51,663 bases of DNA from a virus. A program made the translations under genes and the position numbers. This document shows, piece by piece, positions 19,797-45,897 of this stretch (the first letter of the stretch is position 1; every line of letters begins with the position of its first letter). The stretch lies in IMG/VR virus record IMGVR_UViG_3300045988_097328; one strand, given 5' to 3'. The notes beneath the pieces are model-generated. The model did not search any database. It was not told where the DNA came from and saw only the letters and a list, made by a program, of their open reading frames with translations.

Positions 19797-20018
19797 ATGG
19801 CAATCAATAGTAAGGCACGGCACGACCTGACGCTGCGCGCGATTAAGCGCGAGATTTCCGCTGGACGCGATGTGGCGTTTTGGCTCGATAAGGCGTACAC
19901 GCACCTCGACAACGGGCTGCTGACGGAGGACGACATCGCGGAAATTGAGAAGCTGGCGCAGGCGTACTATGATTCGCTGGACGCGGCGGAAAATAAGGAA
20001 GACGCGGCAACAATCTAA
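19797..20018 (+). CDS. small protein between the tail fibre and lysis genes (XkdX-like position)
   Basis: 73 aa, GGGGGT RBS. Confidence 0.5.
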   Translation: MAINSKARHDLTLRAIKREISAGRDVAFWLDKAYTHLDNGLLTEDDIAEIEKLAQAYYDSLDAAENKEDAATI

Positions 20019-20073
20019 GTTGCAATTGGTAGCAAGTTAGTTGCAAGTTAGTACCAAGTTAGTACCAAGTTTG
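20019..20073 (+). repeat. five tandem 11-nt units, consensus T(A/T)(G/C)CAAGTTAG
   Basis: gttgcaattgg tagcaagttag ttgcaagttag taccaagttag taccaagtttg, running into the endolysin RBS. Confidence 0.85.
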
Positions 20074-20086
20074 AGGAGGTGTCATC

Positions 20087-20866
20087 ATGCCCAAAATCGC
20101 AGTATCCGCCATTCTGGGCGACTTCCAGCGGATGCTTTCCGAGCACTGGAAGTATACGGCTGGTGCAGCGGAGGCGGGGAACGTTGACTGCTCCGGCGCG
20201 TTTGTCTGGTCATACCGTCAGCACGGACAGAGCATCTACCACGGCAGCAACCGCATTGCGCGGACGGAAATTGTTGAGCTTGTCCCAATCTCCGCCGCAA
20301 AGCCCGGAATGGCAGTTTTTAAGTGCCGGAATCCGGGTGATTCGCGGTATGCCTTGCCGTCAGGCTACAAGCAGGGCGGCAAATACTACAACGGCGACTT
20401 GAGGGACTTTTACCACATCGGGCTGATGGGTGAGGACGGCAAGATTCTTAATGCGCAGAGCAGCGCAACGGGCTTCGTCGCTTCACCCGTCAAGTCGTGG
20501 ACGTGTGCAGGATACCTCAAGAAAGTCGATTACAAGGAGGAAAAGCAAGTGGAAGATTCTTATACCGCCGGGGTTTCCTACGTTGGGCGGGTTTATGCCA
20601 CGAGCGGCAGCACGGTCAATCTTCGCGCCGAGCCGAGCAAATCCGCAAAGGTGCTTGAAAAGGTCAAAATCGGCACTTCCGTCAACGTCATCGGGAATAG
20701 TGGCGGTTGGCTGCACATCGAGACGGAGACGAATCAGGGCTACATGATGGAGGATTTTGTCGATGTGGGTATTTCCAAAACGGAAACACCCACGGTCTCT
20801 GAGCTTGCGGAACGCATCGAAAAGCTGGAGGAACGCGTCACAGCACTGGAAGGCGGGGTAGGTTGA
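20087..20866 (+). CDS. endolysin: NlpC/P60-type cysteine peptidase with a C-terminal SH3 domain
   Basis: NVDCSGAF catalytic-Cys context, downstream His; VNLRAEPSKSAKVLEKVKIGTSVNVIGNSGGWLHIE is SH3_3-like. Confidence 0.8.
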   Translation: MPKIAVSAILGDFQRMLSEHWKYTAGAAEAGNVDCSGAFVWSYRQHGQSIYHGSNRIARTEIVELVPISAAKPGMAVFKCRNPGDSRYALPSGYKQGGKYYNGDLRDFYHIGLMGEDGKILNAQSSATGFVASPVKSWTCAGYLKKVDYKEEKQVEDSYTAGVSYVGRVYATSGSTVNLRAEPSKSAKVLEKVKIGTSVNVIGNSGGWLHIETETNQGYMMEDFVDVGISKTETPTVSELAERIEKLEERVTALEGGVG

Positions 20867-25284: not shown

Positions 25285-25725
25285 ATGGCGTATGGTTATC
25301 CACAATATTATCCACAGATTCCGTACTATAACGCGCAGCAGACGGCAATGCCAGACCAACTTGCGCAACTTCGAGCCGCACAGCAGCCGATGATGCAGCA
25401 GCCAGCGCAGCCATCAAGCAACGGACTGATTTGGGTGCAGGGTGAAGCCGGGGCGAAGAGCTACCTTGTCGCCAACGGTTCGAGCGTGCTGCTGATGGAC
25501 AGCGAGAAACAGACGTTTTACATCAAGTCAGCGGACGCGGCAGGAATGCCGTCTATGCGCACGTTTGACTACACGGAGCGAAACGCATCCGTAAAGCCAT
25601 CCAGCAGCGCGCAGGACGCGCCGGAGTATGTAACGCGGGAAGAACTTAACACACTGACGAAACGCCTTGAAGCGCTGGAAGGGCGCAAGAAGAAGGGGGT
25701 AACGCAGGATGAACCCACTGTTTAA
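25285..25725 (+). CDS. hypothetical protein with a Q/P/Y-rich N-terminus
   Basis: 146 aa; MAYGYPQYYPQIPYYNAQQ... Confidence 0.55.
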   Translation: MAYGYPQYYPQIPYYNAQQTAMPDQLAQLRAAQQPMMQQPAQPSSNGLIWVQGEAGAKSYLVANGSSVLLMDSEKQTFYIKSADAAGMPSMRTFDYTERNASVKPSSSAQDAPEYVTREELNTLTKRLEALEGRKKKGVTQDEPTV

Positions 25726-28049: not shown

Positions 28050-28071
28050 ATGCAACACGGAGGGGATTTTT
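28034..28071 (+). terminator. rho-independent terminator
   Basis: AAAATCCCCTCC-13 nt-GGAGGGGATTTT followed by T. Confidence 0.8.
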
Positions 28072-28281
28072 GACCCCCGTTTTGACTACTTTGCACGACG
28101 GAAAGAGGGTCAAAATTGCGAATCTGGGGATTTCGTATTTCGGATGATTGTGCTACAATCAAGCATTATCAATGGATTGCAGCGGGTGCAAAAATGCAGT
28201 CATAAAAACATCAGTTCCTTTTTGAGGAGAATTAAAAAATCCGCAATCAGTTGAAAGCACAAGGTTTCTGTGCTGTGCGCA

Positions 28282-29352
28282 TCAATTTTGACTACCATTT
28301 TGACTACTTGCCCTCCTCGCAAGCACATTTTCCACTTTCTTAACAGCGCTTTCCTCCTTCTTTGCTGTGAGGTGTGCGTAAATCCTCATTATCATTTCCT
28401 CGTTTGCGTGCCCCATCCATTTTACAGCAGTTTTAATGTCAACGTCCGCATCATATAGCATTGTTGCGAACGTATGTCTACAATCGTGCTGACGTATCGC
28501 AACTTTCTTCCGCGCAACCGATGACAAAAAGCTCAAATATCTGCGCCATTCCACATCCACGTCGTTTATTGACATTTTTTTGCCATCTTTTGGCGTAAAA
28601 ATATTACCGTGCTTGCCTGTTAGTGCCTTCCTCAGTGGCAGGAACAGGGGAACATCACGGATTCCTGCTTTTGTTTTTGGCTGGACGATAACACACGAGG
28701 AATGTTCGGCGCGCAGAGAGTGCCGAACGTGAATTACGCCATTTTCAAAATCAACGTCCTTGTCAATGTCGAGTGCAAGCGCTTCACCACGCCGCAACCC
28801 TGCATAGAGCATCACCATAGCAAACAGTCCCATCGGATTTTCTTTGTATGTATCTTCGATTATCTGCACTTCCCAATCTTCAAGGTTGCGGTGCGTTCCA
28901 ACTTCGCCTTTCGCCGGCTTGATGTTTTCGCATGGATTTTTTGTTACAATTCCATCACCTAACGCGGCGCGGAAAACCGCTCGTACCGTCATTGCTACTT
29001 TTTTTCGTGTCGCATCCCCACGATTAGCAAAAGCGTTATATAGCCGTTGTATGTCCGACGGCGTAATTAGTCGCATCTCAACTTTTGGCAAGATTGACGC
29101 TATCTTGTTAAGCCTTGCCACATAGTCATCATACACTTTCGCCGTCACCTCGCTCTTGTACGTCGGCAGCCACTCCGCCGCGTACTCCGCGAACGTGTAC
29201 TTTTCCCGTGGTTTCCTGCCGTATTTTTCCTGCTTCTTGTACTCTTCGCGGGCTGCAAGGGCTTCGGACTGCGTTCGCCCGTAGAAGGAAAACCCCTTAT
29301 ATTTACAAACGTAACGCCCATCTGGGCGCTTTTTTAGTGTCTGGCGTGGCAA
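28282..29352 (-). CDS. int: tyrosine recombinase / phage integrase
   Basis: LRRGEALAL (R), HDCRHTF (HxxR), GHANEEMIMRIYAHL (H..Y); start chosen at TTG 29352 (AAAGGAG 8 nt upstream); in-frame ATGs at 29403 and 29460 are alternatives. Confidence 0.85.
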   Translation of the reverse strand: MPRQTLKKRPDGRYVCKYKGFSFYGRTQSEALAAREEYKKQEKYGRKPREKYTFAEYAAEWLPTYKSEVTAKVYDDYVARLNKIASILPKVEMRLITPSDIQRLYNAFANRGDATRKKVAMTVRAVFRAALGDGIVTKNPCENIKPAKGEVGTHRNLEDWEVQIIEDTYKENPMGLFAMVMLYAGLRRGEALALDIDKDVDFENGVIHVRHSLRAEHSSCVIVQPKTKAGIRDVPLFLPLRKALTGKHGNIFTPKDGKKMSINDVDVEWRRYLSFLSSVARKKVAIRQHDCRHTFATMLYDADVDIKTAVKWMGHANEEMIMRIYAHLTAKKEESAVKKVENVLARRASSQNGSQN

Positions 29353-29528
29353 GTATATCACTCCTTTTCTCTCATTGTGCCGCAAAACGCAGCAAAGTGC
29401 CATCGTAAATTGTGAACAAATTGAAAACATTTCGCAAACGCACGGGAAATTTTTAGTCATATTCCGCGGCGCGTCAGCATATGGTATTGCGGTTGACGGT
29501 AAAAAAATACGCGACTGGAGAGGAAAAT

Positions 29529-29657
29529 ATGCCTGTTTTTGATAAAAAGTTTGTTGTTAAAACGCTCGTCGAGAAGGTGAAGGAACTGCCGGATGACCTG
29601 CAAGCGGAATTTTTTTCGTGGCTGGAAAAGAAAATATCTGCAAAGAAAACGTTATGA
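29529..29657 (+). CDS. small ORF (42 aa) divergent from int
   Basis: GGAGAGGAAAAT then ATG 29529; below the track cutoff; no recognisable motif. Confidence 0.3.
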   Translation: MPVFDKKFVVKTLVEKVKELPDDLQAEFFSWLEKKISAKKTL

Positions 29658-29870
29658 ATATATAAACAATACGGACTGCGGAGAGCATCGAATCCGAAAG
29701 CAAGTAAAAAAAAATTAAGCAAGTAAGAAGCAATCCGTGGGAAATAACGGAAAAAAATTAGCTTCATTATTATTTCCATCCAGATTCGTGATTCCGCCGT
29801 TCTATCAATTTGCAACAATTCTACTTGGTAGTATTGTGATGTTCTTGAATGGTTAATTTTGGGATGCGAA

Positions 29871-29975
29871 AGTAAGGGAAGGTCAAACTCCGCTTGTGAA
29901 AGTCAGGGAAAGTCAGGGAAAGTCAGGGAAGCAGGTACAGAATAGCAAAAGTAAAAGTCAGAGAAGGTCAGAAAC
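29871..29975 (+). repeat. cluster of AGTCAGGGAA-type 10-mers (3 perfect tandem copies at 29901-29930 plus degenerate copies)
   Basis: agtcagggaa x3; flanking AGTAAGGGAAGGTCAAA (29871) and AGTCAGAGAAGGTCAGA (29956). Confidence 0.85.
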
Positions 29976-30060
29976 TCGAAGGAATGTGACGGACATCAGC
30001 GAATAAAAAGTGTCTGAAACGTAGTAATTGCAAGGTTTTGCGCCACTTTTGCGAACATGC

Positions 30061-30189
30061 TGCATTAGCACAAAAAATATGCTATTCATTGCTTAGCTCG
30101 AAAAATACGCTATTCGTTGCTTAGCATAAAAAAAGTGCTTAGCATATTTTTTGTGCTATTCAGCAAATAGCACATTTTTTTTGCTTAGC
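30061..30189 (+). repeat. array of GCTTAGC palindromes separated by A/T tracts
   Basis: GCTTAGC at 30091, 30119, 30137 and 30183; GCTATTC(A/G)TTGCTTAGC duplicated at 30081 and 30109; hairpin GTGCTATT/AATAGCAC at 30153-30173. Confidence 0.85.
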
Positions 30190-30254
30190 TATAAAAAAAG
30201 AAAACAAGAAAAGAAAAAACGCTGACGCGCTGTGGCAGTGGCTGTCTTTTTTTT

Positions 30255-30358
30255 ACAAACGAACGTTATTCCTTCGCGCGCGACATAGTATTCGGGCGAT
30301 GATTTGCCGGCGTCGGCAAAATGTTCGTTTGTTTCCTCTCGCGCGCGCGACATAGTAT
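30255..30358 (+). repeat. nested inverted and direct repeats
   Basis: ACAAACGAAC (30255-30264) / GTTCGTTTGT (30323-30332); TCGCGCGCGACATAGTAT (30274-30291) repeated at 30339-30358; hairpin TTTGCCG-gcgt-CGGCAAA at 30303-30320. Confidence 0.85.
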
Positions 30359-30360
30359 AT

Positions 30361-30448
30361 TATATATCCATACTTGTGTGTAATATATATATATTATATA
30401 TCATACAGTGTAATATAAGCTTCTATACAGTACAAGTATGGATATATA
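30361..30448 (+). repeat. 17-bp perfect inverted repeat in nearly pure AT DNA
   Basis: TATATATCCATACTTGT (30361-30377) / ACAAGTATGGATATATA (30432-30448), 54-nt spacer. Confidence 0.9.
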
Positions 30449-30461
30449 AAAAATATATAAT

Positions 30462-30637
30462 AAAAGACCACTACTACCACCACAAGAACACATACTCGAC
30501 AGAGTGGGGTAGGGGGATAATAGGGGGTATAGAGTAATAGGGGGTATGGGGGAAGAGAGAAAAGGGGGGAAGAAGCGGGAGGGGAGAGGGACGGGCGGTG
30601 GTTTTGTGGTGGTGGCAGCGGCGGTGGTCTTTTTTTT
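30462..30637 (+). other. long imperfect hairpin enclosing a run of G3-G6 tracts and ending in T8
   Basis: arm AAAAGACCACTACTACCACCACAAG (30462-30486) pairs, with G.U pairs and a bulge, to 30603-30633; at least 10 G tracts in 30506-30598; T8 at 30630-30637. Confidence 0.7.
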
Positions 30638-30780
30638 ATCCAGCACCTTTCTGCGCATCCGCAGCATGGTCGTCTTCGCGGCTTCGCGAAATTGATAGTC
30701 ACGGGGCAGACCATTTTCGTGGTGTCGCGCAAATGGTTCTCACTGCCATTTTTGCCCAACAAAAAAATTAGCAGGGGTGC

Positions 30781-30809
30781 TTGACAAGCGGGGCAATCTG
30801 GCATATAAT
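30781..30809 (+). promoter_or_regulatory. perfect sigma-70 promoter with no downstream ORF
   Basis: TTGACA 30781-30786, N17, TATAAT 30804-30809; points into the antisense of the decayed repressor gene. Confidence 0.7.
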
Positions 30810-30946
30810 CATGGCATCTTGCTTCTCCGCTCTGCTCCTCTGCTGATTCTCCTGCTTGTCCTCACGCGCTTGCCGCTCTCAGGCGTTCGTGGATGTGCGG
30901 TTCTTTCTCGCCGGTTCTCATGTTCCCGACATTCGCGCCGGGGACA

Positions 30947-31253
30947 TCACGGTTCGCCCTTTTTAGCATCTCCCTTGTCCGCCATGCGCTTTAAGCTATG
31001 TTCCTTGCGCTCCTGCCGCATCCGACGTTCTGCTTTCGCGGTTAGGTACTCAACGTAGTCCATCGCCTCGCGCACAACGTCATCCGGCGCACCCATCAGC
31101 TTGGCGATAATCGCCTCGCAGGTTGCGTCGAGAATCGGGCGGTCAGACGTTCCTTGCGGGTTGTCGGACAGTCCGCAAAGGTAGTCGGTGGTCACGCCGT
31201 AGTATTCAGCGATTTTTTTTGCGCAATTCTACAAGACGTTCCGACAAAACCAT
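30947..31253 (-). pseudogene. decayed CI-like XRE repressor (HTH core deleted, frame broken at an A8 run)
   Basis: ATG 31253 gives MVLSERLVELRKKNR*; the next frame continues KKIAEYYGVTTDYLCGLSDNP... to 30947; helices 2-3 of the HTH are missing. Confidence 0.6.
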
Positions 31254-31286
31254 ATATTTACACCACACTTTTTTTCTTTCACCCTC

Positions 31287-31315
31287 TTGACAAATAGAAC
31301 TGAAAGAAATATAAT
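31287..31315 (+). promoter_or_regulatory. perfect sigma-70 promoter for the 31358 gene
   Basis: TTGACA 31287-31292, N17, TATAAT 31310-31315. Confidence 0.75.
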
Positions 31316-31357
31316 ACAGACGTGAAATAAAATTATTTTGACATATGGAGGGGCACG

Positions 31358-31558
31358 ATGGCTAACCGCTTGCGTGAGTTTCGCAAGAATCAGGGCATGA
31401 CGCAAATGCAGATTGCAGACGTGCTCAGATGTCAGCAGACCCTTGTATCTCAGTATGAGAGGGGTGTACATACACCGTCACTGCATAACGCTATCCGCCT
31501 TGCCCGTGCGCTTGGCACGACGGTCGAAGAACTCTTCGGGGGCGAGGTCGATGGCTGA
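31358..31558 (+). CDS. XRE-family HTH regulator (Cro-like)
   Basis: 66 aa; GMTQMQIADVLRCQQTLVSQYERG. Confidence 0.8.
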   Translation: MANRLREFRKNQGMTQMQIADVLRCQQTLVSQYERGVHTPSLHNAIRLARALGTTVEELFGGEVDG

Positions 31559-32090
31559 GAAGCTGCGGCATTTTCTCCACGTCGCCGGGGTGCAAGGAAT
31601 CAGCGTCGCCGCGCTGTCCGAAAAGTCGGGTATCTCGAAGCCGACTATTTACCGATACGCCAACGGACAGGGAAGTCCAACTGTTGACGCGATGAAGCGC
31701 ATTGCGAAAGCCCTCGGATGCACAGTCAGAGAGGCGTTTCCTGAGGTTTACAGCGAGAAGGTGGACGTGCCGACAGTCAACATCACGGACACGCAGCCTA
31801 TCAGCACGGCAAAGCTGGCGATGCAGTACGGCATGTCAACACGCGAGTTTAATCAGGCGCTGTTCCGCGCTGGCATCCAGATACAGCGCTCCGATGGCAC
31901 TTGGGTGGTCGCCGGGAACTATGCCGATATGGCGACTTACAAGCCCGTTAAAACGGAGAAAGGCACTGTGCGACTGTTCGCAATGTGGACGCTGACGGCG
32001 CGAAAGGTGATTCAGTCCTTGCTGGAGGAGCAAGGGATAGTTCCGACGGACGGCGTGAACGTGGGGTCATCGGAGCGCCCGACAAGATAG
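31551..32090 (+). CDS. HTH protein with a KilA-C/ANT-like C-terminal domain (antirepressor-like)
   Basis: ATG 31551 overlaps the previous stop; ISVAALSEKSGISKPTIYRYANG; C-terminal similarity from memory. Confidence 0.5.
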   Translation: MAEKLRHFLHVAGVQGISVAALSEKSGISKPTIYRYANGQGSPTVDAMKRIAKALGCTVREAFPEVYSEKVDVPTVNITDTQPISTAKLAMQYGMSTREFNQALFRAGIQIQRSDGTWVVAGNYADMATYKPVKTEKGTVRLFAMWTLTARKVIQSLLEEQGIVPTDGVNVGSSERPTR

Positions 32091-32275
32091 TCGAGCGACA
32101 CGCCGTAGAAGTCGGCAATGCGGACAAGTGCCGAAAGCGTCGGTTCGCTGCATCCAGACTTGTAAAGCTGGTACGCGCGAACAGTAATCCCTGCTGCCTC
32201 TGCAATCTGCGCATTGCGATAGTCAAAAAACGTCTGCAAGTCGCAGAGACGAGAGCGAAAGTCAGACAAAAACAA
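32012..32275 (-). CDS. XRE-family HTH repressor
   Basis: 87 aa; AQIAEAAGITVRAYQLYKSG...IADFYGVSLDYLVGRSDDP; 3' end overlaps the convergent gene by 79 nt. Confidence 0.75.
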   Translation of the reverse strand: MFLSDFRSRLCDLQTFFDYRNAQIAEAAGITVRAYQLYKSGCSEPTLSALVRIADFYGVSLDYLVGRSDDPTFTPSVGTIPCSSSKD

Positions 32276-32296
32276 TCACCAACTTTCAGAAATCGC

Positions 32297-32325
32297 TTGA
32301 CGTGAAGAATAATTCGTGCTATAAT
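32297..32325 (+). promoter_or_regulatory. near-consensus promoter TTGACG-N17-TATAAT
   Basis: direct repeats TGAAGAATA at 32303 and 32331 flank the -10. Confidence 0.7.
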
Positions 32326-32358
32326 GAGCATGAAGAATACTTCATGGAAGGAGTGGAG

Positions 32359-32550
32359 ATGCAGAATGTTCAGCTTGTCAATGCGCGGAAAGCCTCGAAT
32401 ATGACGCAAGTCGAGGTTGCAAGCCGCTGCGGGGTTACAGTTCGCGCATATCAGCACTACGAAGCAGGACAGCAAACCCCCAGCGTTACGACAGCGATTC
32501 GCATTGCCGACGCGCTGGGGGTGGAAGACATCAGGGCGCTGTTTTGCTAA
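32359..32550 (+). CDS. XRE-family HTH regulator (Cro-like)
   Basis: AAGGAG 5 nt before ATG 32359; 63 aa; NMTQVEVASRCGVTVRAYQHYEAG. Confidence 0.75.
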   Translation: MQNVQLVNARKASNMTQVEVASRCGVTVRAYQHYEAGQQTPSVTTAIRIADALGVEDIRALFC

Positions 32551-32556
32551 CGGGTA

Positions 32557-33333
32557 TCACTTGCTAAGATACAAGCAAGTCATATCTTGTCCGGGCTGAC
32601 AGGAGGCGTAGAAAAACAGATTGCCATCGTCATCGAGGAAAACGAGCGAGTAGTTCAATGTGTCGAAGTCGGCAAGTTGGGAGAAGTCGTCGAGGTAATC
32701 TTGCGTCAAAGTTACCTTCGCTGCTTTGCCCTTGTAACCGGCGAACATATCGGCAACATACGCGCCGTTCATCTTCACCATGTAAGCCTTATCCTTCTTG
32801 CTGTAATAATAGCCGACGTAGCCGTCCTTCTTTCCGTACACTTCGACGACTTTTGCGAGGAAATCGGCATCCGCGCCCCAAGAGACGTAAACGTTAGAAT
32901 CAGCGTCAATCGGAACGTCAAAATCCTCATGGACGGTTTCGCCGCTCTTGTTGCTGAACTCACAGTATACGTCGCCGGTAAAGTCGCTCTTTGTGCAGAA
33001 GCTCAGCTTGAGATAATAGCCACTTGCCCAATGGCTCACAGTCTCAGCAGCAGTTTCAAAAATGCGCGTGTAGGAATCAACCATGGAAGCGTATTCCGCA
33101 ACGTCGCACGTCTTGAGCGTCGAGAATACCGGGTGGTAGCATTTAACCTCTATGCACTTTTCCGCCGTATCAGCGGAAAGCGAATAGTAATAGCCATCAT
33201 CCGAATGGTCGCCGAACGGAGACATTTGCAGAAAGCGAATGACGAAAGCTTCGTCATCGGTCAGCGCCAGCGCGGGGACGCAGGAAGCCATCAGGCAGCA
33301 GAGAACCAGCAGGACGGAAACAAACTTCTTCAT
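32557..33333 (-). CDS. secreted protein or lipoprotein (superinfection-exclusion candidate)
   Basis: 258 aa; signal peptide MKKFVSVLLVLCCLMASC with a lipobox-like MASC. Confidence 0.6.
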   Translation of the reverse strand: MKKFVSVLLVLCCLMASCVPALALTDDEAFVIRFLQMSPFGDHSDDGYYYSLSADTAEKCIEVKCYHPVFSTLKTCDVAEYASMVDSYTRIFETAAETVSHWASGYYLKLSFCTKSDFTGDVYCEFSNKSGETVHEDFDVPIDADSNVYVSWGADADFLAKVVEVYGKKDGYVGYYYSKKDKAYMVKMNGAYVADMFAGYKGKAAKVTLTQDYLDDFSQLADFDTLNYSLVFLDDDGNLFFYASCQPGQDMTCLYLSK

Positions 33334-33369
33334 CGTGATACCCCTTTCGTGTATCAGAGCAAACGGCAG

Positions 33370-33675
33370 TTAGAACCTCGAATCAAAGAAATGCAGAAGC
33401 GAATCAAAAGTTTCGAGCAATAAGCGAAAGCGACCTGACCGATACCGTTCCATCTCTTCCAGAGCGTGACGGTTTAACTGCGGTACATAGTCCGGCGGAT
33501 GTGCTTCAATGTCTGCGGGGCATAGCGGTTGCTCCAAGAAGCCAGATGAACGCAACCGCGCAATCTGTTCCGCCGAAAGTTGTTTGCCGCGCTGAAAGTC
33601 ACGGCAGAGACGATATTCTGATTCAAGCAAGGCATACTCACCTCCATTCCTGCATAGGATATGACTGCATAGCAA
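33370..33675 (-). CDS. hypothetical protein (101 aa) abutting the RHH gene
   Basis: track ORF; start adjacent to the stop of the RHH gene. Confidence 0.45.
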   Translation of the reverse strand: MLCSHILCRNGGEYALLESEYRLCRDFQRGKQLSAEQIARLRSSGFLEQPLCPADIEAHPPDYVPQLNRHALEEMERYRSGRFRLLLETFDSLLHFFDSRF

Positions 33676-33876
33676 TCATTCCTGATTTTGAGGGAGGACG
33701 ATTTCGCCGTGCTTGTCCTCATAGTCCGCGATATGCTGACGCATTAGCATCTCCAATTCGCGGTTGACGGTTCGCAGGTTCTTTTGCGCAACCACGCGGA
33801 ACTTGTCAAGCGTCTGCTTGTCGGTGCGGAGCGTAAACTTCGGGAGGTCGGACGGCAAGGGAATCACCACCTTCAA
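33676..33876 (-). CDS. ribbon-helix-helix (Arc-like) protein
   Basis: 66 aa (TTG start); FTLRTDKQTLDKFRVVAQKNLRTVNRELEMLM. Confidence 0.6.
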   Translation of the reverse strand: MKVVIPLPSDLPKFTLRTDKQTLDKFRVVAQKNLRTVNRELEMLMRQHIADYEDKHGEIVLPQNQE

Positions 33877-33896
33877 AAAAAATTTCGGTCAGCACC

Positions 33897-33925
33897 TTGA
33901 CAGCAAGGTGACGGCACTATATAAT
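33897..33925 (+). promoter_or_regulatory. perfect sigma-70 promoter with direct-repeat operators
   Basis: TTGACA 33897-33902, N17, TATAAT 33920-33925; GGTGACGGCAC at 33907-33917 and 33934-33944. Confidence 0.75.
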
Positions 33926-33945
33926 AAAAGAGAGGTGACGGCACA

Positions 33946-34092
33946 ATGACGGCAGACAGCAGGAAAGTCACACTGCGAATGGGCGCGGGGCTTCATCGCA
34001 AGCTGCAAGTCCTTGCAGAGCGCGAAAACCGAAGCGTCAACCAGCAGATGATTCACATCATCCAGCACGCCATTGATGGGAGCGAGAAGTAG
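33946..34092 (+). CDS. ribbon-helix-helix (CopG-like) protein, 48 aa
   Basis: below the track cutoff; AGAGAGGTGA RBS; KVTLRMGAGLHRKLQVLAERENRSVNQQMIHIIQHAI. Confidence 0.6.
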   Translation: MTADSRKVTLRMGAGLHRKLQVLAERENRSVNQQMIHIIQHAIDGSEK

Positions 34093-34269
34093 TCTGGGCG
34101 ACACAGGCGGACGCGAAAAAGGCTTTGCGCGGAAGCAACGTCTAATTCGCACAAAAACGCCCTCAGGAGCGCTTGCACGTCCAGACTGGTATTTCCTCAC
34201 CTGATGGGCTGGAAGCGATCAGAACGCCGTTTTTGTCCTTGTAGAGTGTGTGTCCAGCGCAAACGCGCA

Positions 34270-34581
34270 TCAGGAGCGCGATGTGATGAACTCGATGTAC
34301 TTCATCACATCCGCACGCTGGAGCGCGGAAAGAGACTTCACCTGTTCTGTCAGCGGGTCGAAGTCGGGCGGCGAGAACGCGTTCTCATCACGTCCAACGA
34401 GTGTATCAAGAGAAACGCCGAGGACATCCGCGATTGCGATAAGCCGCGTCGGAACGGGGTTGCTTCTTCCAGATTCATAGTTCTGGATTGTAATCTCTGC
34501 GACATTGGCGCGTTCTGCAAGCTGTTGCTGGCTCAGCCCGTTCGAGAGCCGAAGCGCAAGCAGAATTTCCGGGAACGGCAC
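34270..34581 (-). CDS. XRE-family HTH repressor paralogue
   Basis: 103 aa; GLSQQQLAERANVAEITIQNYESG; C-terminal ...QRADVMKYIEFI. Confidence 0.75.
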   Translation of the reverse strand: MPFPEILLALRLSNGLSQQQLAERANVAEITIQNYESGRSNPVPTRLIAIADVLGVSLDTLVGRDENAFSPPDFDPLTEQVKSLSALQRADVMKYIEFITSRS

Positions 34582-34592
34582 GGTGCATCACC

Positions 34593-34919
34593 TCACTTGT
34601 GCGGGTTCGCCCGGACGTATCGAGCGTACCGCATGACTTCTTCCCGGTCTGACGGAGCAAGCGCGGAAATCTCCAAGTAGAGCGTGTCCGTTTCTTTGGG
34701 AGACGGCGCACCGTCACTGCCGGAAAGATAGTCAACCGTTACGCCGAGCAAGTCCGCCATCTTGCAAAGAAGCTCGACACTTGGCGAACGATTTGCCTTT
34801 TGGAGCATCGACAACGCACCGGGAGTGATGCCGCAGGAATCAGCAAACGCCGCGTTTGTAATGCCAGCTTCTTTACACAGATTAGTCAGTCGAGAAGCAA
34901 AAATTTCGCGTGAAAACAT
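34593..34919 (-). CDS. XRE-family HTH repressor (CI-like), divergent from the 35007 gene
   Basis: 108 aa; ITNAAFADSCGITPGALSMLQKA; C-terminal ...DREEVMRYARYV. Confidence 0.75.
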   Translation of the reverse strand: MFSREIFASRLTNLCKEAGITNAAFADSCGITPGALSMLQKANRSPSVELLCKMADLLGVTVDYLSGSDGAPSPKETDTLYLEISALAPSDREEVMRYARYVRANPHK

Positions 34920-34929
34920 GGTTTACCCC

Positions 34930-34958
34930 TTGACATTCACGCAAAGTGAATGTATAAT
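34930..34958 (+). promoter_or_regulatory. perfect sigma-70 promoter with a spacer palindrome (early rightward promoter)
   Basis: TTGACA 34930-34935, N17, TATAAT 34953-34958; CATTCAC-gcaaa-GTGAATG at 34934-34952. Confidence 0.8.
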
Positions 34959-35006
34959 GTTATCAGAGGTAAGTCAAGAAATTACCTCAAGCAAGAAGGG
35001 AGAGCA

Positions 35007-35198
35007 ATGTACAGGCAACTGAAACGGATGCGCGAAGCAAACGGTTGGTCGCGCGAGAACGTTGCGCAGCGTGTCGGTGTGAATGTACCAATGCTGTGCA
35101 TGATTGAGACTGGGAAGCGTGACCCGTCCTACAAAGTGTTGGTAGCGCTGGAGGACGTATTTCACACTTCCCACCGAGACCTATTACGAGAGGAGTGA
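35007..35198 (+). CDS. XRE-family HTH regulator (Cro-like)
   Basis: AAGGGAGAG RBS, ATG 35007; 63 aa. Confidence 0.75.
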   Translation: MYRQLKRMREANGWSRENVAQRVGVNVPMLCMIETGKRDPSYKVLVALEDVFHTSHRDLLREE

Positions 35199-35205
35199 CA
35201 CGGAG

Positions 35206-41254: not shown

Positions 41255-41612
41255 GTTGCGCACAACGCAGAGCGGCAAGAGCGTCGCCAATTTCACGGTT
41301 GCGGTCAATCGCCGCGCGAAACCGGGCGAAAAGGCGGAAGCAGACTTTTTTCGGGTATCTGTCTGGGATAAGCAAGCGGAAACGTGCCAAAAGTATCTTG
41401 CCAAGGGACGCAAGGTGTGTGTGATTGGCAGCGTCAGCGTCAGCACATACAACGCCAACGACGGAAGCACACGCGCGACGCTGGAAGTTTTCGCGCAGGA
41501 TGTTGAGTTTTTGGACAGCGCGAAACAGGATGCACCGCAGACAGCGCACGAGGCGGCTCAACCGCCCGCGCCGCAGTACACCCCGGTATACAACGAGGAT
41601 TTGCCGTTCTAA
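41211..41612 (+). CDS. ssb: single-stranded DNA-binding protein
   Basis: MNKLTIIGNLTRDVELR...FFRVSVWDKQAE...; acidic tip EDLPF. Confidence 0.9.
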   Translation: MNKLTIIGNLTRDVELRTTQSGKSVANFTVAVNRRAKPGEKAEADFFRVSVWDKQAETCQKYLAKGRKVCVIGSVSVSTYNANDGSTRATLEVFAQDVEFLDSAKQDAPQTAHEAAQPPAPQYTPVYNEDLPF

Positions 41613-41634
41613 CGGCGGCTGATTGAGGTAGCAA

Positions 41635-42393
41635 ATGGCGAAGGTAAAGTATGTGCCGATACCGCTCGATATGGCTGACGACATCGAAGAACTGTCCGAC
41701 GAGGAAATCGGGCTTGTTGTCAGGGCGTACCTGCAATATGGAAGGAGCGGAGAAACGGCTGAAATGCCGCGTACAATCAAGTACCTTTATAACGCACTTG
41801 TCCGTGAACTGGACAGAGCGAGCGAGGGATATGAGAAAAAAGTTGCGGCTGGCAAATCAGGTGGGCGTGGTCGCCCAAAGAAAGAACTGCCCGAAGAAAT
41901 CCAGCAGCCAGAACAGGCACAGCTCAACCCCAAACAAGAGCAGAAACCAGAAGTGCACACCCCTGCACCCTTCATCAGCGACGAAGCAGCCGCAGAAATC
42001 CAGCAAGGCACAAACGAGGTGCTGGACGAAGCGAAACGGCAAGGATTCCCCGACACGACGGCGACGATGGAGACGCTCAACCAGCTTGTAGCAGACAACA
42101 GCGCGGAAGAAGTGCTGGAATGCGTGAAAATCGCCGGAGAATCTGGGAAGCCTAACATCCGATACCTCAAGGGTGTAATCAATGGACGCGCGAAAGAGAA
42201 ACAGGAGAAAGAGCGACGAGAGCAAGCGCGGATTGAGGCGGAAAAGCACCCGATAAGGTTTATCAACAGCACGGATGAAATTGAAGTACACGAACCGCCG
42301 AAAGTCAAACAAAGAGATGTATTTATGAATAGCGTTGGGTATCCAGAGGTACGGACGAAGTTGGAAGAAATAGCGAGAAAATGGAGTAGTTAA
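41635..42393 (+). CDS. DnaD-like replisome organiser / replication initiation protein
   Basis: 252 aa upstream of DnaB; C-terminal ...NIRYLKGVINGRAKE typical of DnaD-domain proteins. Confidence 0.6.
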   Translation: MAKVKYVPIPLDMADDIEELSDEEIGLVVRAYLQYGRSGETAEMPRTIKYLYNALVRELDRASEGYEKKVAAGKSGGRGRPKKELPEEIQQPEQAQLNPKQEQKPEVHTPAPFISDEAAAEIQQGTNEVLDEAKRQGFPDTTATMETLNQLVADNSAEEVLECVKIAGESGKPNIRYLKGVINGRAKEKQEKERREQARIEAEKHPIRFINSTDEIEVHEPPKVKQRDVFMNSVGYPEVRTKLEEIARKWSS

Positions 42394-42395
42394 AG

Positions 42396-43703
42396 ATGGA
42401 CGCATACATCAATGAGGACGCGGAAAAGAGCCTGATTGGACTTGCAATGCAAGACGCAATCGTGGCGCAAGAGGTTGCCGCACTGCCTGATGCACTCTTT
42501 GGCTTAAAGCAGATGCAAGCCTGTCAGCGCGGAATCATGCGACTTGTGAAGCAGGGGAAACAAGTTGACCTTGTGACGCTGGATGCAGAAGTGCAATGCG
42601 ACTTCCAAGATACCGCCCTCTTGATGCAATGCGTACAAATGGGCATTTCGCCCGTCATGTCGCGGCAGTACATAGCGATTTTGGCGGAGTGCGCGAAACG
42701 CCGCGAACTGGCGACGCTGGCGCGAAAAATCCTGCAAGATGTAGGAAATCCGGGCGTGTCGGTTGCAGCGCTGCAAGCGGATTGCGCAGCGGCGGCACAG
42801 TCGTCAACCGCTATCAACGACGGGGTGACGATGCACGAAGCGTCGCTCATGCTTGCGAATTCTTTCGACAAGAAGGATGGCGTAACTTGCGGAATCGCAG
42901 ACCTTGACGTGATGCTGGGCGGTTTCAAGCCGGGACAGCTAATCTATATCGGCGCACGTCCCGGCGTTGGCAAAACGTCACTTGCTATCTGCATGGCGAA
43001 GTACGTTGCGGAACACGGTGGCGGTGTGCTGCTCGTGTCGCTGGAGATGAACCCGGTGGAGATTGCAGCGCGATTCATGGCGAACGAATCAGGCGTAGAC
43101 TTGCAGAAAATCTCCACAGGCAAGATGGAATTAGAGGATTTCGCGCAGATTTCGCCCTGCTATCAGGCGCTTGCAGATTTACCAGTCACAATCGAAGAAA
43201 GAGCGGTCACGCCCTTGCAAATCCGCAACGCGGCAGCAAAAATGAAGGCAAGCAAGCAGGGGTTGAGCCTGATTGTAGTTGACTACATCCAGCTCATGCG
43301 AGCCGATGAGAAGTGCGGAAACCGCACGGAGGAAGTCACGCAAATCAGCCGCGAATTGAAGCTGATGGCGATGGATTTTGGCGTTCCGCTGCTGTGCATG
43401 ACGCAGTTCAACCGCGAAAGCGAGAAGGGGTTTGGCAAGTCGGCAAAAAGCGAGCCGGATATGTCACAAGCGCGAGACAGCGGCGCGATTGAGCAGGACG
43501 CGAACGTGTTTCTCATCCTGCACGAGCCGGAAGAGCCGCAGGACGAGAACAGCGACAGATGGCAGATGTACCACAATTGTCAAGCGAACGGTTTGACGTG
43601 GCAGACGTGCCGAATCAGGAAGAACAGAAACGGCGCAACGGGGCTTGTTCATCTTGGCTTCGACAAGCCGCATATGCGATATACTTGCCTAAAAAAGGAA
43701 TAG
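42396..43703 (+). CDS. dnaB: replicative DNA helicase DnaB
   Basis: 435 aa; Walker A GARPGVGKTS, Walker B LIVVDYIQLM, QLNRE-type motif TQFNRESE. Confidence 0.9.
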   Translation: MDAYINEDAEKSLIGLAMQDAIVAQEVAALPDALFGLKQMQACQRGIMRLVKQGKQVDLVTLDAEVQCDFQDTALLMQCVQMGISPVMSRQYIAILAECAKRRELATLARKILQDVGNPGVSVAALQADCAAAAQSSTAINDGVTMHEASLMLANSFDKKDGVTCGIADLDVMLGGFKPGQLIYIGARPGVGKTSLAICMAKYVAEHGGGVLLVSLEMNPVEIAARFMANESGVDLQKISTGKMELEDFAQISPCYQALADLPVTIEERAVTPLQIRNAAAKMKASKQGLSLIVVDYIQLMRADEKCGNRTEEVTQISRELKLMAMDFGVPLLCMTQFNRESEKGFGKSAKSEPDMSQARDSGAIEQDANVFLILHEPEEPQDENSDRWQMYHNCQANGLTWQTCRIRKNRNGATGLVHLGFDKPHMRYTCLKKE

Positions 43704-44860: not shown

Positions 44861-45128
44861 CAAAAACCGGGTACTGACACTTGCGGAATTGGCAATCAGC
44901 GCAGAAACGCTCGTATGGATTGAAGATAACAACGGGGACGACGAGCCGTGCGTCCGTGCGCGAATGTTAACGTACTGGGAACCTAAAAGCCATCGCATAT
45001 ATTTCGACGGCGGACGCACATGGTACGCCGATTATACATACGGCGAGACGTGGCGCTGCTGGTTGAGGAATCCGACGGAGCAGCAGATGAGGGACACGCC
45101 GTGGGAGGAAAGCAAAAATGAAGTATGA
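44850..45128 (+). CDS. WRCW-domain protein (paralogue 4)
   Basis: GGGAGGA RBS; NRVLTLAELA...TWRCWLRNPTEQQMRDTPWEE. Confidence 0.6.
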   Translation: MKDNKNRVLTLAELAISAETLVWIEDNNGDDEPCVRARMLTYWEPKSHRIYFDGGRTWYADYTYGETWRCWLRNPTEQQMRDTPWEESKNEV

Positions 45129-45897
45129 GTTCACTGGCGAAGTGAAATACATCGGCCGTAAGATATTGCATCGAATCCGCGCAGTGCGAGACATCCCGGA
45201 ATACGAGATTAAAAGCGGCGACATGGGAGGATGGCTCGAAACAGAGAAAAATCTTTCACATAACGGCTCAGCGTGGGTGACGGATTCTGCGGTGGTGATG
45301 GACGCGGCGTTCGTGACGGGAGATGCGCGTGTGATGGATTCTGCGTTGGTGATGGGAAATGCGCGTGTGATGGGCGCGGCGCGGGTGATGGACGAGGCGT
45401 TCGTGACGGGAGATGCGCGTGTGACGGATTCTGCGCGGGTGACGGGTTTGTCGCTGGTGGCTGGAAATGCGTTGGTGATGGAAAATGCGCGTGTGATGGA
45501 TTCTGCGCGGGTGACGGGTTTGCCGCTGGTGGCTGGAAATGCGTTGGTGATGGAAAATGCGCGTGTAATGGGCGTGGCGCGGGTGACGGGCGCAGCGTGC
45601 GTAAGGGGCGCAGCGTGCGTAAGGGGCGCAGCGTGGGTGACGGGAAATGCGCATATAATGAACTCGGCTGATTACATCACCATCAATACAATCAAAAACT
45701 GTGACGATACAACCACCTTTTATCGCGGCGCAGATGGGGGAATATATGTCGCCTGCGGACGCTTCAGCGGCTCAATTGACGACTTCGCCGCAAAAGTCAA
45801 GCAAGTCCATGCCGGGACAAAGCACGAAAGGACGTACCTGTTGGCAATCGAACTGGCAAAGGCGCAGATTGCGACGGAGGAGGAAAATGATGGCTGA
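45118..45897 (+). CDS. beta-helix-like repeat protein (hexapeptide/bactofilin-like A-R-V-x-G/D periodicity)
   Basis: 259 aa; GDARVMDSALVMGNARVMGAARVMDEAFVTGDARV... Confidence 0.6.
   Translation: MKYEFTGEVKYIGRKILHRIRAVRDIPEYEIKSGDMGGWLETEKNLSHNGSAWVTDSAVVMDAAFVTGDARVMDSALVMGNARVMGAARVMDEAFVTGDARVTDSARVTGLSLVAGNALVMENARVMDSARVTGLPLVAGNALVMENARVMGVARVTGAACVRGAACVRGAAWVTGNAHIMNSADYITINTIKNCDDTTTFYRGADGGIYVACGRFSGSIDDFAAKVKQVHAGTKHERTYLLAIELAKAQIATEEENDG
45415..45558 (+). repeat. two tandem 72-nt (24-codon) units inside the repeat-protein gene
   Basis: 45415-45486 versus 45487-45558 differ at about 3 positions; additional 18-nt repeats at 45589-45640. Confidence 0.85.

What the first reader, a model, noticed from the sequence alone, without database searches (positions are those of the whole stretch)
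29660..30780. About 1.1 kb ORF-poor, heavily structured island between the integrase and the immunity region
In temperate Gram-positive phages the int-to-repressor interval usually holds accessory genes. Here it holds no credible ORF. Both long six-frame ORFs across it are low-complexity artefacts. Instead it is a mosaic of unrelated repeat families: 10-mer tandems, GCTTAGC palindromes separated by A/T tracts, nested inverted and direct repeats, an AT-only 17-bp inverted repeat, and a G-tract block inside a long hairpin that ends in T8. Composition swings from nearly pure AT (30355-30460) to purine- and G-rich (30500-30600). Possible roles are an origin or partition-type site, a cluster of structured ncRNAs, or recombination and arm-type binding sites. 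I cannot tell which from sequence alone.
Basis: seen in the sequence. Interest (0 to 1): 0.65.

Follow-up and report, generated by a model that had tools for sequence, protein, structure and literature searches.

The report
Phage replication origin beside the integrase
The gene-free, repeat-filled kilobase between the integrase and the repressor of this gut phage is most likely its replication origin, because in related phages its repeat families change in step with the DNA-binding end of the replication initiator encoded 12 kb away.

Summary
Window 29660-30780 is non-coding, and its repeats and hairpins exceed chance. It is not attP: integrated copies place the att core at about 28213-28236, on the other side of int. 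It is not decayed genes either: 40 relatives keep a 518-1392 nt non-coding mosaic there.

The left half (about 29704-30190) occurs in discrete sequence types. Across 35 related contigs these match the type of the N-terminal roughly 85 residues (DUF6291) of the DnaD-like initiator at 41635-42393: 29 of 29 for three types, Cramér V 0.93, p≤5e-5. They do not match its C-terminus, the helicase, the integrase or any 300-nt tile between 30.8 and 41.3 kb. Each initiator type goes with its own repeat family, and the window's type goes with the RGTCA 10-mers. A fourth, composite island carries all three families and pairs with all three initiators.

I read the left half plus its A-tract as an iteron-type origin, most like SPP1 oriR.

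The right cassette (30255-30640: AT block, G-block hairpin) is optional among relatives. It holds the least stable duplex in the genome. It also holds a 16-mer, GGGGGATAATAGGGGG, that recurs in unrelated phages beside iterons and upstream of terminase genes. Its function is unknown.

The parts
29529..29657 (+). Conserved 42-aa ORF that bounds the island on the left; function unknown.
   Evidence: Open and free of indels in 36 relatives. Substitutions are not concentrated at third codon positions (19/12/16 by position). No Pfam or PHROG hit.
29704..30190 (.). Initiator-type-specific segment (type I1): the proposed initiator-binding part of the origin.
   Evidence: Replaced by unrelated sequence in non-I1 relatives. 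Its type matches the initiator N-terminal type in 29 of 29 contigs, with a composite type I3 as the exception.
29866..29975 (+). Seven RGTCA 10-mer direct repeats, spaced 10 or 20 nt within two clusters (29869-29929; 29955-29974), 74% purine, unstructured. Candidate iterons of the N1-type initiator.
   Evidence: There are 4-6 copies in N1-linked islands against 0-2 in N0- or N2-linked islands.
30010..30046 (.). Block GTGTCTGAAACGTAGTAATTGCAAGGTTTTGCGCCAC, recognisable in all four island types (only its 5' half in I2) but absent from the shortest I2 island (L002); role unknown.
   Evidence: Read from the variant sequences.
30065..30190 (.). 28-nt repeats carrying GCTTAGC quasi-palindromes and GCTATT/AATAGC half-sites between A/T tracts. 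Folds into a long hairpin or cruciform. Second candidate binding array.
   Evidence: TGCTTAGC occurs 3-4 times in N1-linked islands against 0-1 elsewhere.
30191..30254 (+). Polypurine A-tract (87% purine, 84% A+T), a short GC hairpin and T8. Conserved in nearly all relatives. Proposed core unwinding element and boundary.
   Evidence: (sixth least stable 60-bp window in the genome).
30255..30340 (.). Inverted repeat ACAAACGAACG.../...CGTTCGTTTGT around a GC hairpin, with 17-nt direct repeats at 30275-30291 and 30342-30358. This is the start of the optional cassette.
   Evidence: z = -5.2. Present or absent among relatives.
30355..30464 (.). 82% A+T block with nested inverted repeats. Contains the least stable 60-bp duplex in the whole 51.6-kb window.
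   Evidence: -58.5 kcal/mol against a mean of -88.1, sd 5.8; z = -4.0.
30465..30640 (+). Long hairpin enclosing a block of G tracts, followed by T8. Contains GGGGGATAATAGGGGG at 30512-30527.
   Evidence: The 16-mer recurs in at least 46 unrelated context families.
30710..30737 (.). Palindrome ACCATTTTCG-N8-CGCAAATGGT, operator-like, about 45 nt upstream of the -35 hexamer of the promoter at 30781.
   Evidence: Half-sites conserved in 40 of 42 islands while the centre varies.
30781..30809 (+). Consensus promoter TTGACA-17-TATAAT, reading towards and antisense to the repressor gene.
   Evidence: 12 of 12 hexamer positions match. Hexamers kept in 40 of 42 relatives with several different spacers.
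41635..42393 (+). Initiator (replisome organiser): a DUF6291 N-terminal domain, a disordered linker and a helical C-terminal part with a sub-threshold DnaD/DnaB_2-like match. The first ~85 residues are the partner of the island. No repeats inside the gene.
   Evidence: The type-specific tile is 41600-41899.
42396..43703 (+). DnaB-like replicative helicase. Its type follows the initiator's C-terminal type.
   Evidence: C0 goes with H0 and C1 with H1 in all 35 contigs.

Best explanation
The island is the phage's iteron-type replication origin region.

Proposed mechanism:
1. The N-terminal three-helix DUF6291 domain of the initiator (41635-42393) binds the type-specific direct repeats in 29704-30190. 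In this phage these are most likely the seven RGTCA 10-mers, possibly together with the GCTTAGC / 28-nt array.
2. The bound array, helped by phased A-tracts, destabilises the adjacent A/T-rich DNA. This is the polypurine tract at 30191-30220 in all relatives. Where the optional cassette is present it is also the AT block at 30355-30464.
3. The initiator's C-terminal part brings in the DnaB-type helicase (42396-43703).

What is shown: the region is non-coding and repeat-rich. It is not attP. Its sequence type co-varies only with the initiator's N-terminal type. It contains the least stable duplex in the genome. The initiator gene has no internal repeats.

What is inferred: physical binding, unwinding, and that initiation starts here.

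The right-hand cassette (30255-30640) is accessory, because about half of the relatives lack it while keeping the same initiator and helicase. The 30641-30809 segment is a separate, conserved, operator-controlled promoter that faces the repressor gene.
For: 1. Type matching across 35 contigs: I0 with N0 12/12, I1 with N1 10/10, I2 with N2 7/7. Cramér V 0.93, p≤5e-5; after reduction to 24 distinct gene-type combinations, V 0.91. Mantel r = 0.51 for the whole initiator and 0.48 for its first 85 residues. By contrast r = 0.01 for its C-terminal 110 residues, 0.05 for the helicase and 0.00 for the integrase.
2. Not linkage: tiles of 300 nt were scanned over 26.3-47 kb. Only tiles 29600/29900 and 41600 separate the I1 type (AUC 1.00 and 0.96-1.00). 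Every tile from 30.8 to 41.3 kb gives AUC 0.24-0.66. The result repeats with I0/N0 and I2/N2 references.
3. Each initiator type has its own repeat family. N0 goes with TAGCTNAGCT palindromes (2-3 copies against 0). N1 goes with RGTCA 10-mers (4-6 against 0-2). N2 goes with AAGCAAA arrays (12-21 against 0-2). The composite I3 island carries all three families and pairs with N0, N1 and N2.
4. Anatomy typical of an origin: direct repeats spaced 10 nt apart with no single-strand structure, phased A-tracts, and the genome's least stable duplex.
5. The initiator gene has no repeats in its linker. An unrelated phage with a DUF6291 initiator (L096) carries tandem repeats inside the gene.
6. Precedent: SPP1 gp38 binds direct repeats next to an AT-rich unwinding element both inside gene 38 (oriL) and in a long intergenic region about 13 kb away (oriR) (PMC6316719).
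Against: - No experiment or expression, coverage or marker-frequency data is available.
- The I3 island pairs with all three initiator types. I explain this by its composite content, but that is an inference.
- Co-variation shows a functional coupling with the initiator, not that replication starts here. An iteron control locus or a fork-stalling site would look the same.
- The 0-26 kb and 47-51.6 kb parts of the genome were not scanned for other co-varying loci.
- The N-terminal domain has no detectable structural relative, so its DNA-binding role is assumed by analogy.
- No DnaA boxes occur in the island.
Confidence: 0.62

Rival explanations
1. The island binds the initiator, but it is not where replication starts. 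It would be a distal control site: either an iteron array that titrates or 'handcuffs' the initiator, or a fork-stalling site like the role proposed for SPP1 oriR, with the true origin elsewhere.
For: The co-variation shows only a coupling with the initiator. In SPP1, gp38 bound to the distal oriR is proposed to stall forks and trigger the switch to concatemer synthesis (PMC6316719).
Against: No other cluster of these repeats exists in the window, and none lies in or near the initiator gene. The island has its own strongly unstable A/T elements.
Confidence: 0.15
2. The island is mainly a transcription boundary with one or more small RNA genes. The hairpins followed by T-runs would be terminators, or sRNAs expressed from the prophage. 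The optional cassette 30255-30640 would be a non-coding 'moron' whose C-rich minus-strand or G-rich plus-strand transcript acts on host or phage RNAs.
For: There are three hairpin-plus-T8 elements on the + strand and terminator-like sites on the - strand. The hairpins fold significantly better than shuffles. The cassette is optional and 97-99% conserved where present.
Against: No Rfam family matches. Only one weak (9 of 12) promoter-like match lies inside the cassette, on the minus strand. No compensatory changes are available. This reading does not explain why the left half tracks the initiator's N-terminal domain.
Confidence: 0.12
3. The island holds recombination sites: extra arm-type sites for the integrase or an excisionase (an extended attP).
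For: The RGTCA core resembles the arm-type motif RGTCAAAA next to attP, and one island copy (AGGTCAAAC) fits that motif.
Against: Integrated copies place the crossover at about 28213-28236, 3' of int, with five arm-type sites at 28068-28298. The whole int gene separates the island from the core. Island type is independent of integrase type (Mantel r = 0.00; V 0.42, p 0.44).
Confidence: 0.03
4. The island is the decayed remnant of accessory genes.
For: Two ORFs of 114 and 136 aa cross it, and gene callers sometimes call ORFs here in relatives.
Against: Both ORFs are broken by stops and frame-shifting indels in close relatives. No relative carries a gene at this position. The sequence is organised as repeat arrays, not as degraded coding sequence.
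Confidence: 0.03

Closest known systems
Bacillus phage SPP1 origins oriL/oriR with the origin-binding protein gp38, loader gp39 and DnaB-type helicase gp40
   Same: An initiator binds direct repeats next to an AT-rich unwinding element. One site (oriR) lies in a long intergenic region bracketed by transcription signals, about 13 kb from the initiator gene. The helicase is of the DnaB type (PMC6316719).
   Different: SPP1 also has an origin inside the initiator gene; here the gene has no repeats. The initiator here is DUF6291 with a weak DnaD-like match. The site lies between int and the repressor of a temperate phage. No separate loader was identified.
Phage lambda ori / O protein (lambdoid origin specificity; from textbook knowledge)
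   Same: Iterons plus an A/T-rich region. The N-terminal part of the initiator sets origin specificity, and the C-terminal part matches the helicase-delivery partner. The same split is seen here: the N-type follows the island and the C-type follows the helicase.
   Different: Lambda's ori lies inside the O gene, whereas here it is 12 kb away and non-coding. The protein family differs. Phage_rep_O-type initiators with internal iterons do appear among the unrelated phages that share the 16-mer.
Non-coding, RNA-based prophage origins of cluster A mycobacteriophages (Wetzel et al. 2020, PMC7157519)
   Same: A non-coding region at the integration or partition cassette position of a temperate phage provides replication function.
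   Different: Those phages lack an integrase, are maintained extrachromosomally, and use an initiator RNA rather than a protein-iteron pair. Here a protein initiator co-varies with the repeats, and the phage integrates.
G-rich R-loop priming elements (ColE1 RNA II, mitochondrial CSB II; from memory, as a lead for the G block only)
   Same: A run of G tracts lies close to an easily melted region.
   Different: No promoter, transcript or RNase H site was shown. The G block is optional among relatives. Not tested.

Membership tests
Iteron-type replication origin | Several direct repeats in helical register that are the binding sites of a cognate initiator | tested here: met
   Seven RGTCA 10-mers spaced 10 or 20 nt within two clusters. 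Cognate status is inferred from type-for-type co-variation with the initiator's N-terminal domain. Binding itself was not measured.
Iteron-type replication origin | Adjacent A/T-rich DNA unwinding element | tested here: met
   The polypurine tract 30191-30220 is 84% A+T. The block starting at 30357 is the least stable 60-bp duplex of the window, more than 5 sd below the mean.
Iteron-type replication origin | Supports initiator-dependent replication | not testable with these tools
   Needs plasmid replication assays or marker-frequency data.
Phage attachment site (attP) | Contains the crossover core shared with attB and flanking arm-type sites | tested here: not met
   Homology between phage and integrated forms breaks at about 28213-28236, 3' of int. 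The arm sites lie at 28068-28298.
Partition (centromere-like) site | Repeat array accompanied by ParA/ParB-type or ParM/ParR-type genes on a non-integrating replicon | tested here: not met
   No Par protein appeared among the ORFs scanned. The phage has an integrase and is found integrated. Not every ORF was scanned.
Known structured RNA families (Rfam 15) | Match at or above a family's gathering score | tested here: not met
   Zero matches in the whole window. Only sub-threshold hairpin-type hits in 29300-31400.
Protein-coding gene or pseudogene | Reading frame conserved among relatives | tested here: not met
   In-frame stops and indels of 1, 2, 16, 17 and 31 nt.
DnaA-dependent origin | Cluster of DnaA boxes (TTATCCACA) | tested here: not met
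   No box with up to 1 mismatch lies inside 29660-30780.

The most novel reading that the evidence does not exclude
GGGGGATAATAGGGGG (window 30512-30527) is an undescribed, self-contained DNA signal shared by phages of very different hosts and G+C contents. It sits at replication-origin and packaging-module junctions: beside iterons inside four different initiator gene families, and upstream of terminase genes. It may be a loading, priming or structure-forming element. The island's optional cassette would be a portable, G-block-extended copy that supplements the origin.
Probability: 0.3. Interest if true: 0.8.

Novelty: new variant of a known kind. Interest (0 to 1): 0.6.

Why it matters
- It places a replication origin in an uncultivated family of gut temperate phages using comparative sequence alone. 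It also identifies DUF6291 as the probable origin-recognition domain of a replisome organiser.
- The three initiator types, each with its own repeat family, plus a natural composite origin, form a ready-made specificity system. It can be tested directly by swapping types, and it could supply orthogonal replicons.
- The position is unusual. An origin sitting between int and the repressor, next to a promoter that fires against the repressor gene, suggests a link between the lysis-lysogeny switch and replication control.
- The cross-phylum 16-mer is a lead of its own. No paper in the searched library contains it.

Tried and rejected
- Rfam, at gathering and permissive thresholds: nothing. tRNA/tmRNA scan: none.
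- blastn of the island against 50,697 phage records: no match. The terminase has no relative above 60% identity among isolates (best listed 48.6%), so no cultured reference exists.
- Integrase scan of species-representative genomes found nothing, and the cluster look-up gave no organism names. The host therefore remains unidentified.
- A 14-mer, 2-mismatch comparison of the island with the rest of the window gave only chance-level noise. The TAGCTNAGCT palindromes occur nowhere else in the regulatory regions of relatives, so they are not distal copies of the switch operators.
- 'The AT block and G block are the essential origin' was rejected. Relatives that lack them have the same initiator and helicase, and no copy of the motif within 5 kb of the helicase. 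Cassette presence co-varies only with the adjacent tile.
- 'The 16-mer is a protein motif' was rejected. It is read in all frames and on both strands.
- 'The 16-mer is exclusive to origins' was rejected. Large terminase subunits are the most frequent PHROG match among the nearest ORFs, with replication proteins the other recurrent class.
- There is no conservation beyond the 16-mer apart from avoidance of C at the flanking positions.
- A sequence search of the PDB, and AlphaFold2 plus Foldseek on the initiator, gave no relative.
- Literature searches for the motif and for DUF6291 returned nothing.
- There are no DnaA boxes in the island.

Full report
**Context.** The window is a roughly 51.6-kb temperate phage genome in the circularly permuted, virion-type order. 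Packaging, head, tail and lysis genes occupy about 1-28 kb. A tyrosine integrase lies on the minus strand (28282-29352). The island follows. After it come a cluster of HTH regulators (30947-35200), then recombination genes (Mu Gam-like, Erf-like), a DUF6291/DnaD-like initiator (41635-42393) and a DnaB-like helicase (42396-43703). No cultured phage is close to it. Many near and distant relatives exist in gut-type metagenome viral contigs.

**The observation.**
- TRF finds a perfect 10-mer tandem at 29898-29930 and a 28-nt repeat at 30065-30133.
- The repeat finder gives the GCTTAGC sites, the 17-nt perfect direct repeat (30275 / 30342), the 18-nt perfect inverted repeat in the AT block, and the 24-nt stem that encloses the G block.
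- The 10-mer pattern has 8 hits in the window against 1.36 expected. No shuffle reaches 8, and five of the hits lie in a 100-nt stretch.
- Four sub-regions fold far better than dinucleotide shuffles (z from -3.6 to -5.2). The 10-mer array does not (z +1.3), as expected for protein-binding direct repeats.
- Both long ORFs are artefacts. Close relatives carry in-frame stops and indels of 1, 2, 16 and 31 nt, and the G block has 1- and 17-nt indels.
- No Rfam family and no tRNA matches.

**It is not attP.** Contigs that encode the identical integrase include integrated forms. In L045, L046 and L050, host genes follow directly 3' of int. Phage and prophage sequences diverge within TTAATTCTCCTCAAAAAGGAACTG, which is window ~28213-28236. 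Five RGTCAAAA arm-type sites lie at 28068-28298. The island is on the opposite, 5' side of int.

**It is not decayed genes.** In 40 relatives the interval between the 42-aa ORF and the repressor's 3' end varies from 518 to 1392 nt and is always non-coding. It is a mosaic.
- Conserved in nearly all relatives: 29300-29635, the polypurine-plus-T8 block 30191-30254, 30620-30737, and the sequence from 30954 onward.
- 29704-30190 is replaced wholesale by other repeat-rich sequence.
- 30255-30620 is present or absent as a unit.

**The key result.** The left half falls into four sequence types, I0 to I3.
- I fetched the replication module of the same contigs. The initiator's first ~85 residues fall into three types, N0, N1 and N2. 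These are homologous but highly divergent (the N1 tile scores 92 in I1-type relatives against 7-11 in the others).
- The two sets correspond one to one: I0-N0 12/12, I1-N1 10/10 (this window's pair), I2-N2 7/7.
- Cramér V is 0.93 (p≤5e-5), and 0.91 after collapsing to 24 distinct combinations of gene types. Against helicase type V is 0.17 (p 0.86), and against integrase type 0.42 (p 0.44).
- Mantel correlations say the same: r = 0.51 for the whole initiator and 0.48 for its first 85 residues. By contrast r = 0.01 for its C-terminal 110 residues, 0.05 for the helicase and 0.00 for the integrase.
- Linkage does not explain this. In a 300-nt tile scan from 26.3 to 47 kb, only the island tiles and tile 41600-41899 separate I1 from the rest (AUC 0.96-1.00). 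All tiles between 30.8 and 41.3 kb give AUC 0.24-0.66. That includes the 35.3-37.4 kb gap, which I filled with a further fetch.
- The result repeats with I0/N0 and I2/N2 phages as reference.
- The breakpoint lies inside the initiator gene. The C-terminal type follows the helicase type in all 35 contigs. This is the pattern known from lambdoid O/P systems.

**Which repeats go with which initiator.** Counts per island separate cleanly.
- N0-linked islands have 2-3 TAGCTNAGCT palindromes about 20 nt apart; the others have none.
- N1-linked islands have 4-6 RGTCA 10-mers (0-2 elsewhere) and 3-4 TGCTTAGC sites (0-1 elsewhere).
- N2-linked islands have 12-21 AAGCAAA units (0-2 elsewhere).

The exceptional I3 island is nearly identical in six contigs that carry N0, N1 or N2. 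It is a composite. Its first ~65 nt match I2's AAGCAAA array, positions ~97-155 match I1's RGTCA array, and positions ~250-340 match I0's palindrome array. I read it as a natural multi-specificity origin. That turns the apparent exception into support, but this step is an inference.

**Mechanism.** The initiator model has a confident three-helix N-terminal domain (residues 6-64, pLDDT 75-89), a disordered linker (65-113) and a helical C-terminal part. Its gene has no repeats. An unrelated phage with a DUF6291 initiator (L096) carries tandem repeats in the linker-coding DNA. The island supplies what that gene lacks:
- direct repeats in helical register on a 74% purine strand;
- phased A-tracts;
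- an 84% A+T polypurine tract conserved in all relatives;
- in this phage, the least stable 60-bp duplex of the whole genome (-58.5 against -88.1 ± 5.8 kcal/mol).

The closest documented parallel is SPP1. There, gp38 binds direct repeats beside an AT-rich unwinding element both within gene 38 and in a long intergenic region about 13 kb away, and a DnaB-type helicase is then loaded (PMC6316719). I therefore take 29704-30254 to be the origin proper, with confidence about 0.6. The main alternative is that it is an initiator-binding control or fork-stalling site.

**The right-hand cassette (30255-30640).** About half of the relatives lack it, yet they keep the same initiator and helicase. Its presence co-varies only with the adjacent 30.8-kb tile. 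It is 97-99% conserved where present. It is therefore accessory.

Its G block contains GGGGGATAATAGGGGG.
A composition-matched control has 12.
- The hits fall into 46 unrelated context families.
- The motif is read in every frame and on both strands, so the constraint is on the DNA. Nothing is conserved around it except avoidance of C at the flanks.
- It lies directly beside iterons inside initiator genes of four kinds: Phage_rep_O-type, Lin1244_N-type, DUF6291-type and an unclassified type.
- A Klebsiella phage has a G5-ATTTA-G5 variant in the same arrangement.
- Among the three nearest ORFs of each family, replication proteins and terminase large subunits dominate. It is therefore not exclusive to origins.
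- Similar G blocks occur in non-coding gaps of other phages.
- No paper in the library contains the sequence.

I cannot assign a mechanism to the motif. A priming, loading or structure-forming signal is possible but untested.

**The right edge (30641-30809).** A perfect sigma-70-type promoter reads towards the repressor gene. Its hexamers are kept in 40 of 42 relatives across several different spacers. A palindrome whose half-sites are conserved in 40 of 42 islands lies about 45 nt upstream of the -35 hexamer. This is a separate regulatory element of the genetic switch and not part of the repeat mosaic.

**Limits.**
- Everything rests on comparative sequence.
- The co-variation proves a coupling, not initiation.
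- 0-26 kb and 47-51.6 kb were not scanned.
- The host is unidentified.
- The N-terminal domain has no structural relative.

Noticed in passing
window 31212/31213 (repressor gene 30947-31290, minus strand): Compared with the 99.9%-identical contig L043, the window lacks 107 nt next to a T-run. The deletion removes most of the HTH and shifts the frame of the 137-aa XRE-type repressor, leaving an 82-aa C-terminal ORF. This copy may be a repressor-defective (clear-plaque-like) variant.
   Followed up: yes
window 28060-28310: attP: the crossover region is about 28213-28236, and five RGTCAAAA arm-type sites lie at 28068, 28080, 28108, 28286 and 28298. This was defined by comparison with the integrated copies L045, L046 and L050, which have two different host flanks.
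   Followed up: yes
window 30512-30527; loci L051-L174, L242: GGGGGATAATAGGGGG is at least 10-fold over-represented in viral contigs compared with a composition-matched control. It is found beside iterons in four initiator families, upstream of terminase genes, and inside G blocks. It is a perfect mirror repeat and is often preceded by a C4-5 run that could pair with the first G5.
   Followed up: partly
window 30710-30809: A conserved consensus promoter faces the repressor gene (antisense or convergent). It has a conserved ACCATTT...AAATGGT palindrome upstream. In many relatives there is also a second palindrome, TTTTGTTG-N4-CAACAAAA, which a 31-nt deletion has removed from the window.
   Followed up: partly
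window 41635-43703 and loci L175-L229: The initiator's C-terminal type (C0/C1) follows the helicase type (H0/H1) in all 35 contigs, with a recombination breakpoint in the linker-coding part of the initiator gene. This fits a C-terminus-helicase interaction, but the two segments are adjacent, so linkage is not excluded.
   Followed up: partly
loci L003, L009, L010, L016, L022, L024 (island type I3): A composite island carries the repeat families of all three other types and is found with all three initiator types. It may be a natural multi-specificity origin.
   Followed up: partly
window 25296-25316: Two perfect DnaA-box nonamers (TTATCCACA) lie 12 nt apart at the start of ORF 25285-25725. They are the only perfect boxes in the window.
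   Followed up: no
window 20018-20071: An 11/22-nt tandem repeat (AGTTGCAAGTTAGTACCAAGTT, 2.5-5 copies) sits just upstream of ORF 20087-20866 in the late region.
   Followed up: no
window 45271-45635: Long 18/36/54/72-nt tandem repeats lie inside ORF 45118-45897 (PHROG 5070, unknown function), so the encoded protein is repetitive.
   Followed up: no
window 29529-29657: A 42-aa ORF diverges from int and stays open and free of indels in 36 relatives. Its substitutions are not biased towards third codon positions, and its 3' end changes with island type I0. It is unclear whether it is a gene.
   Followed up: partly
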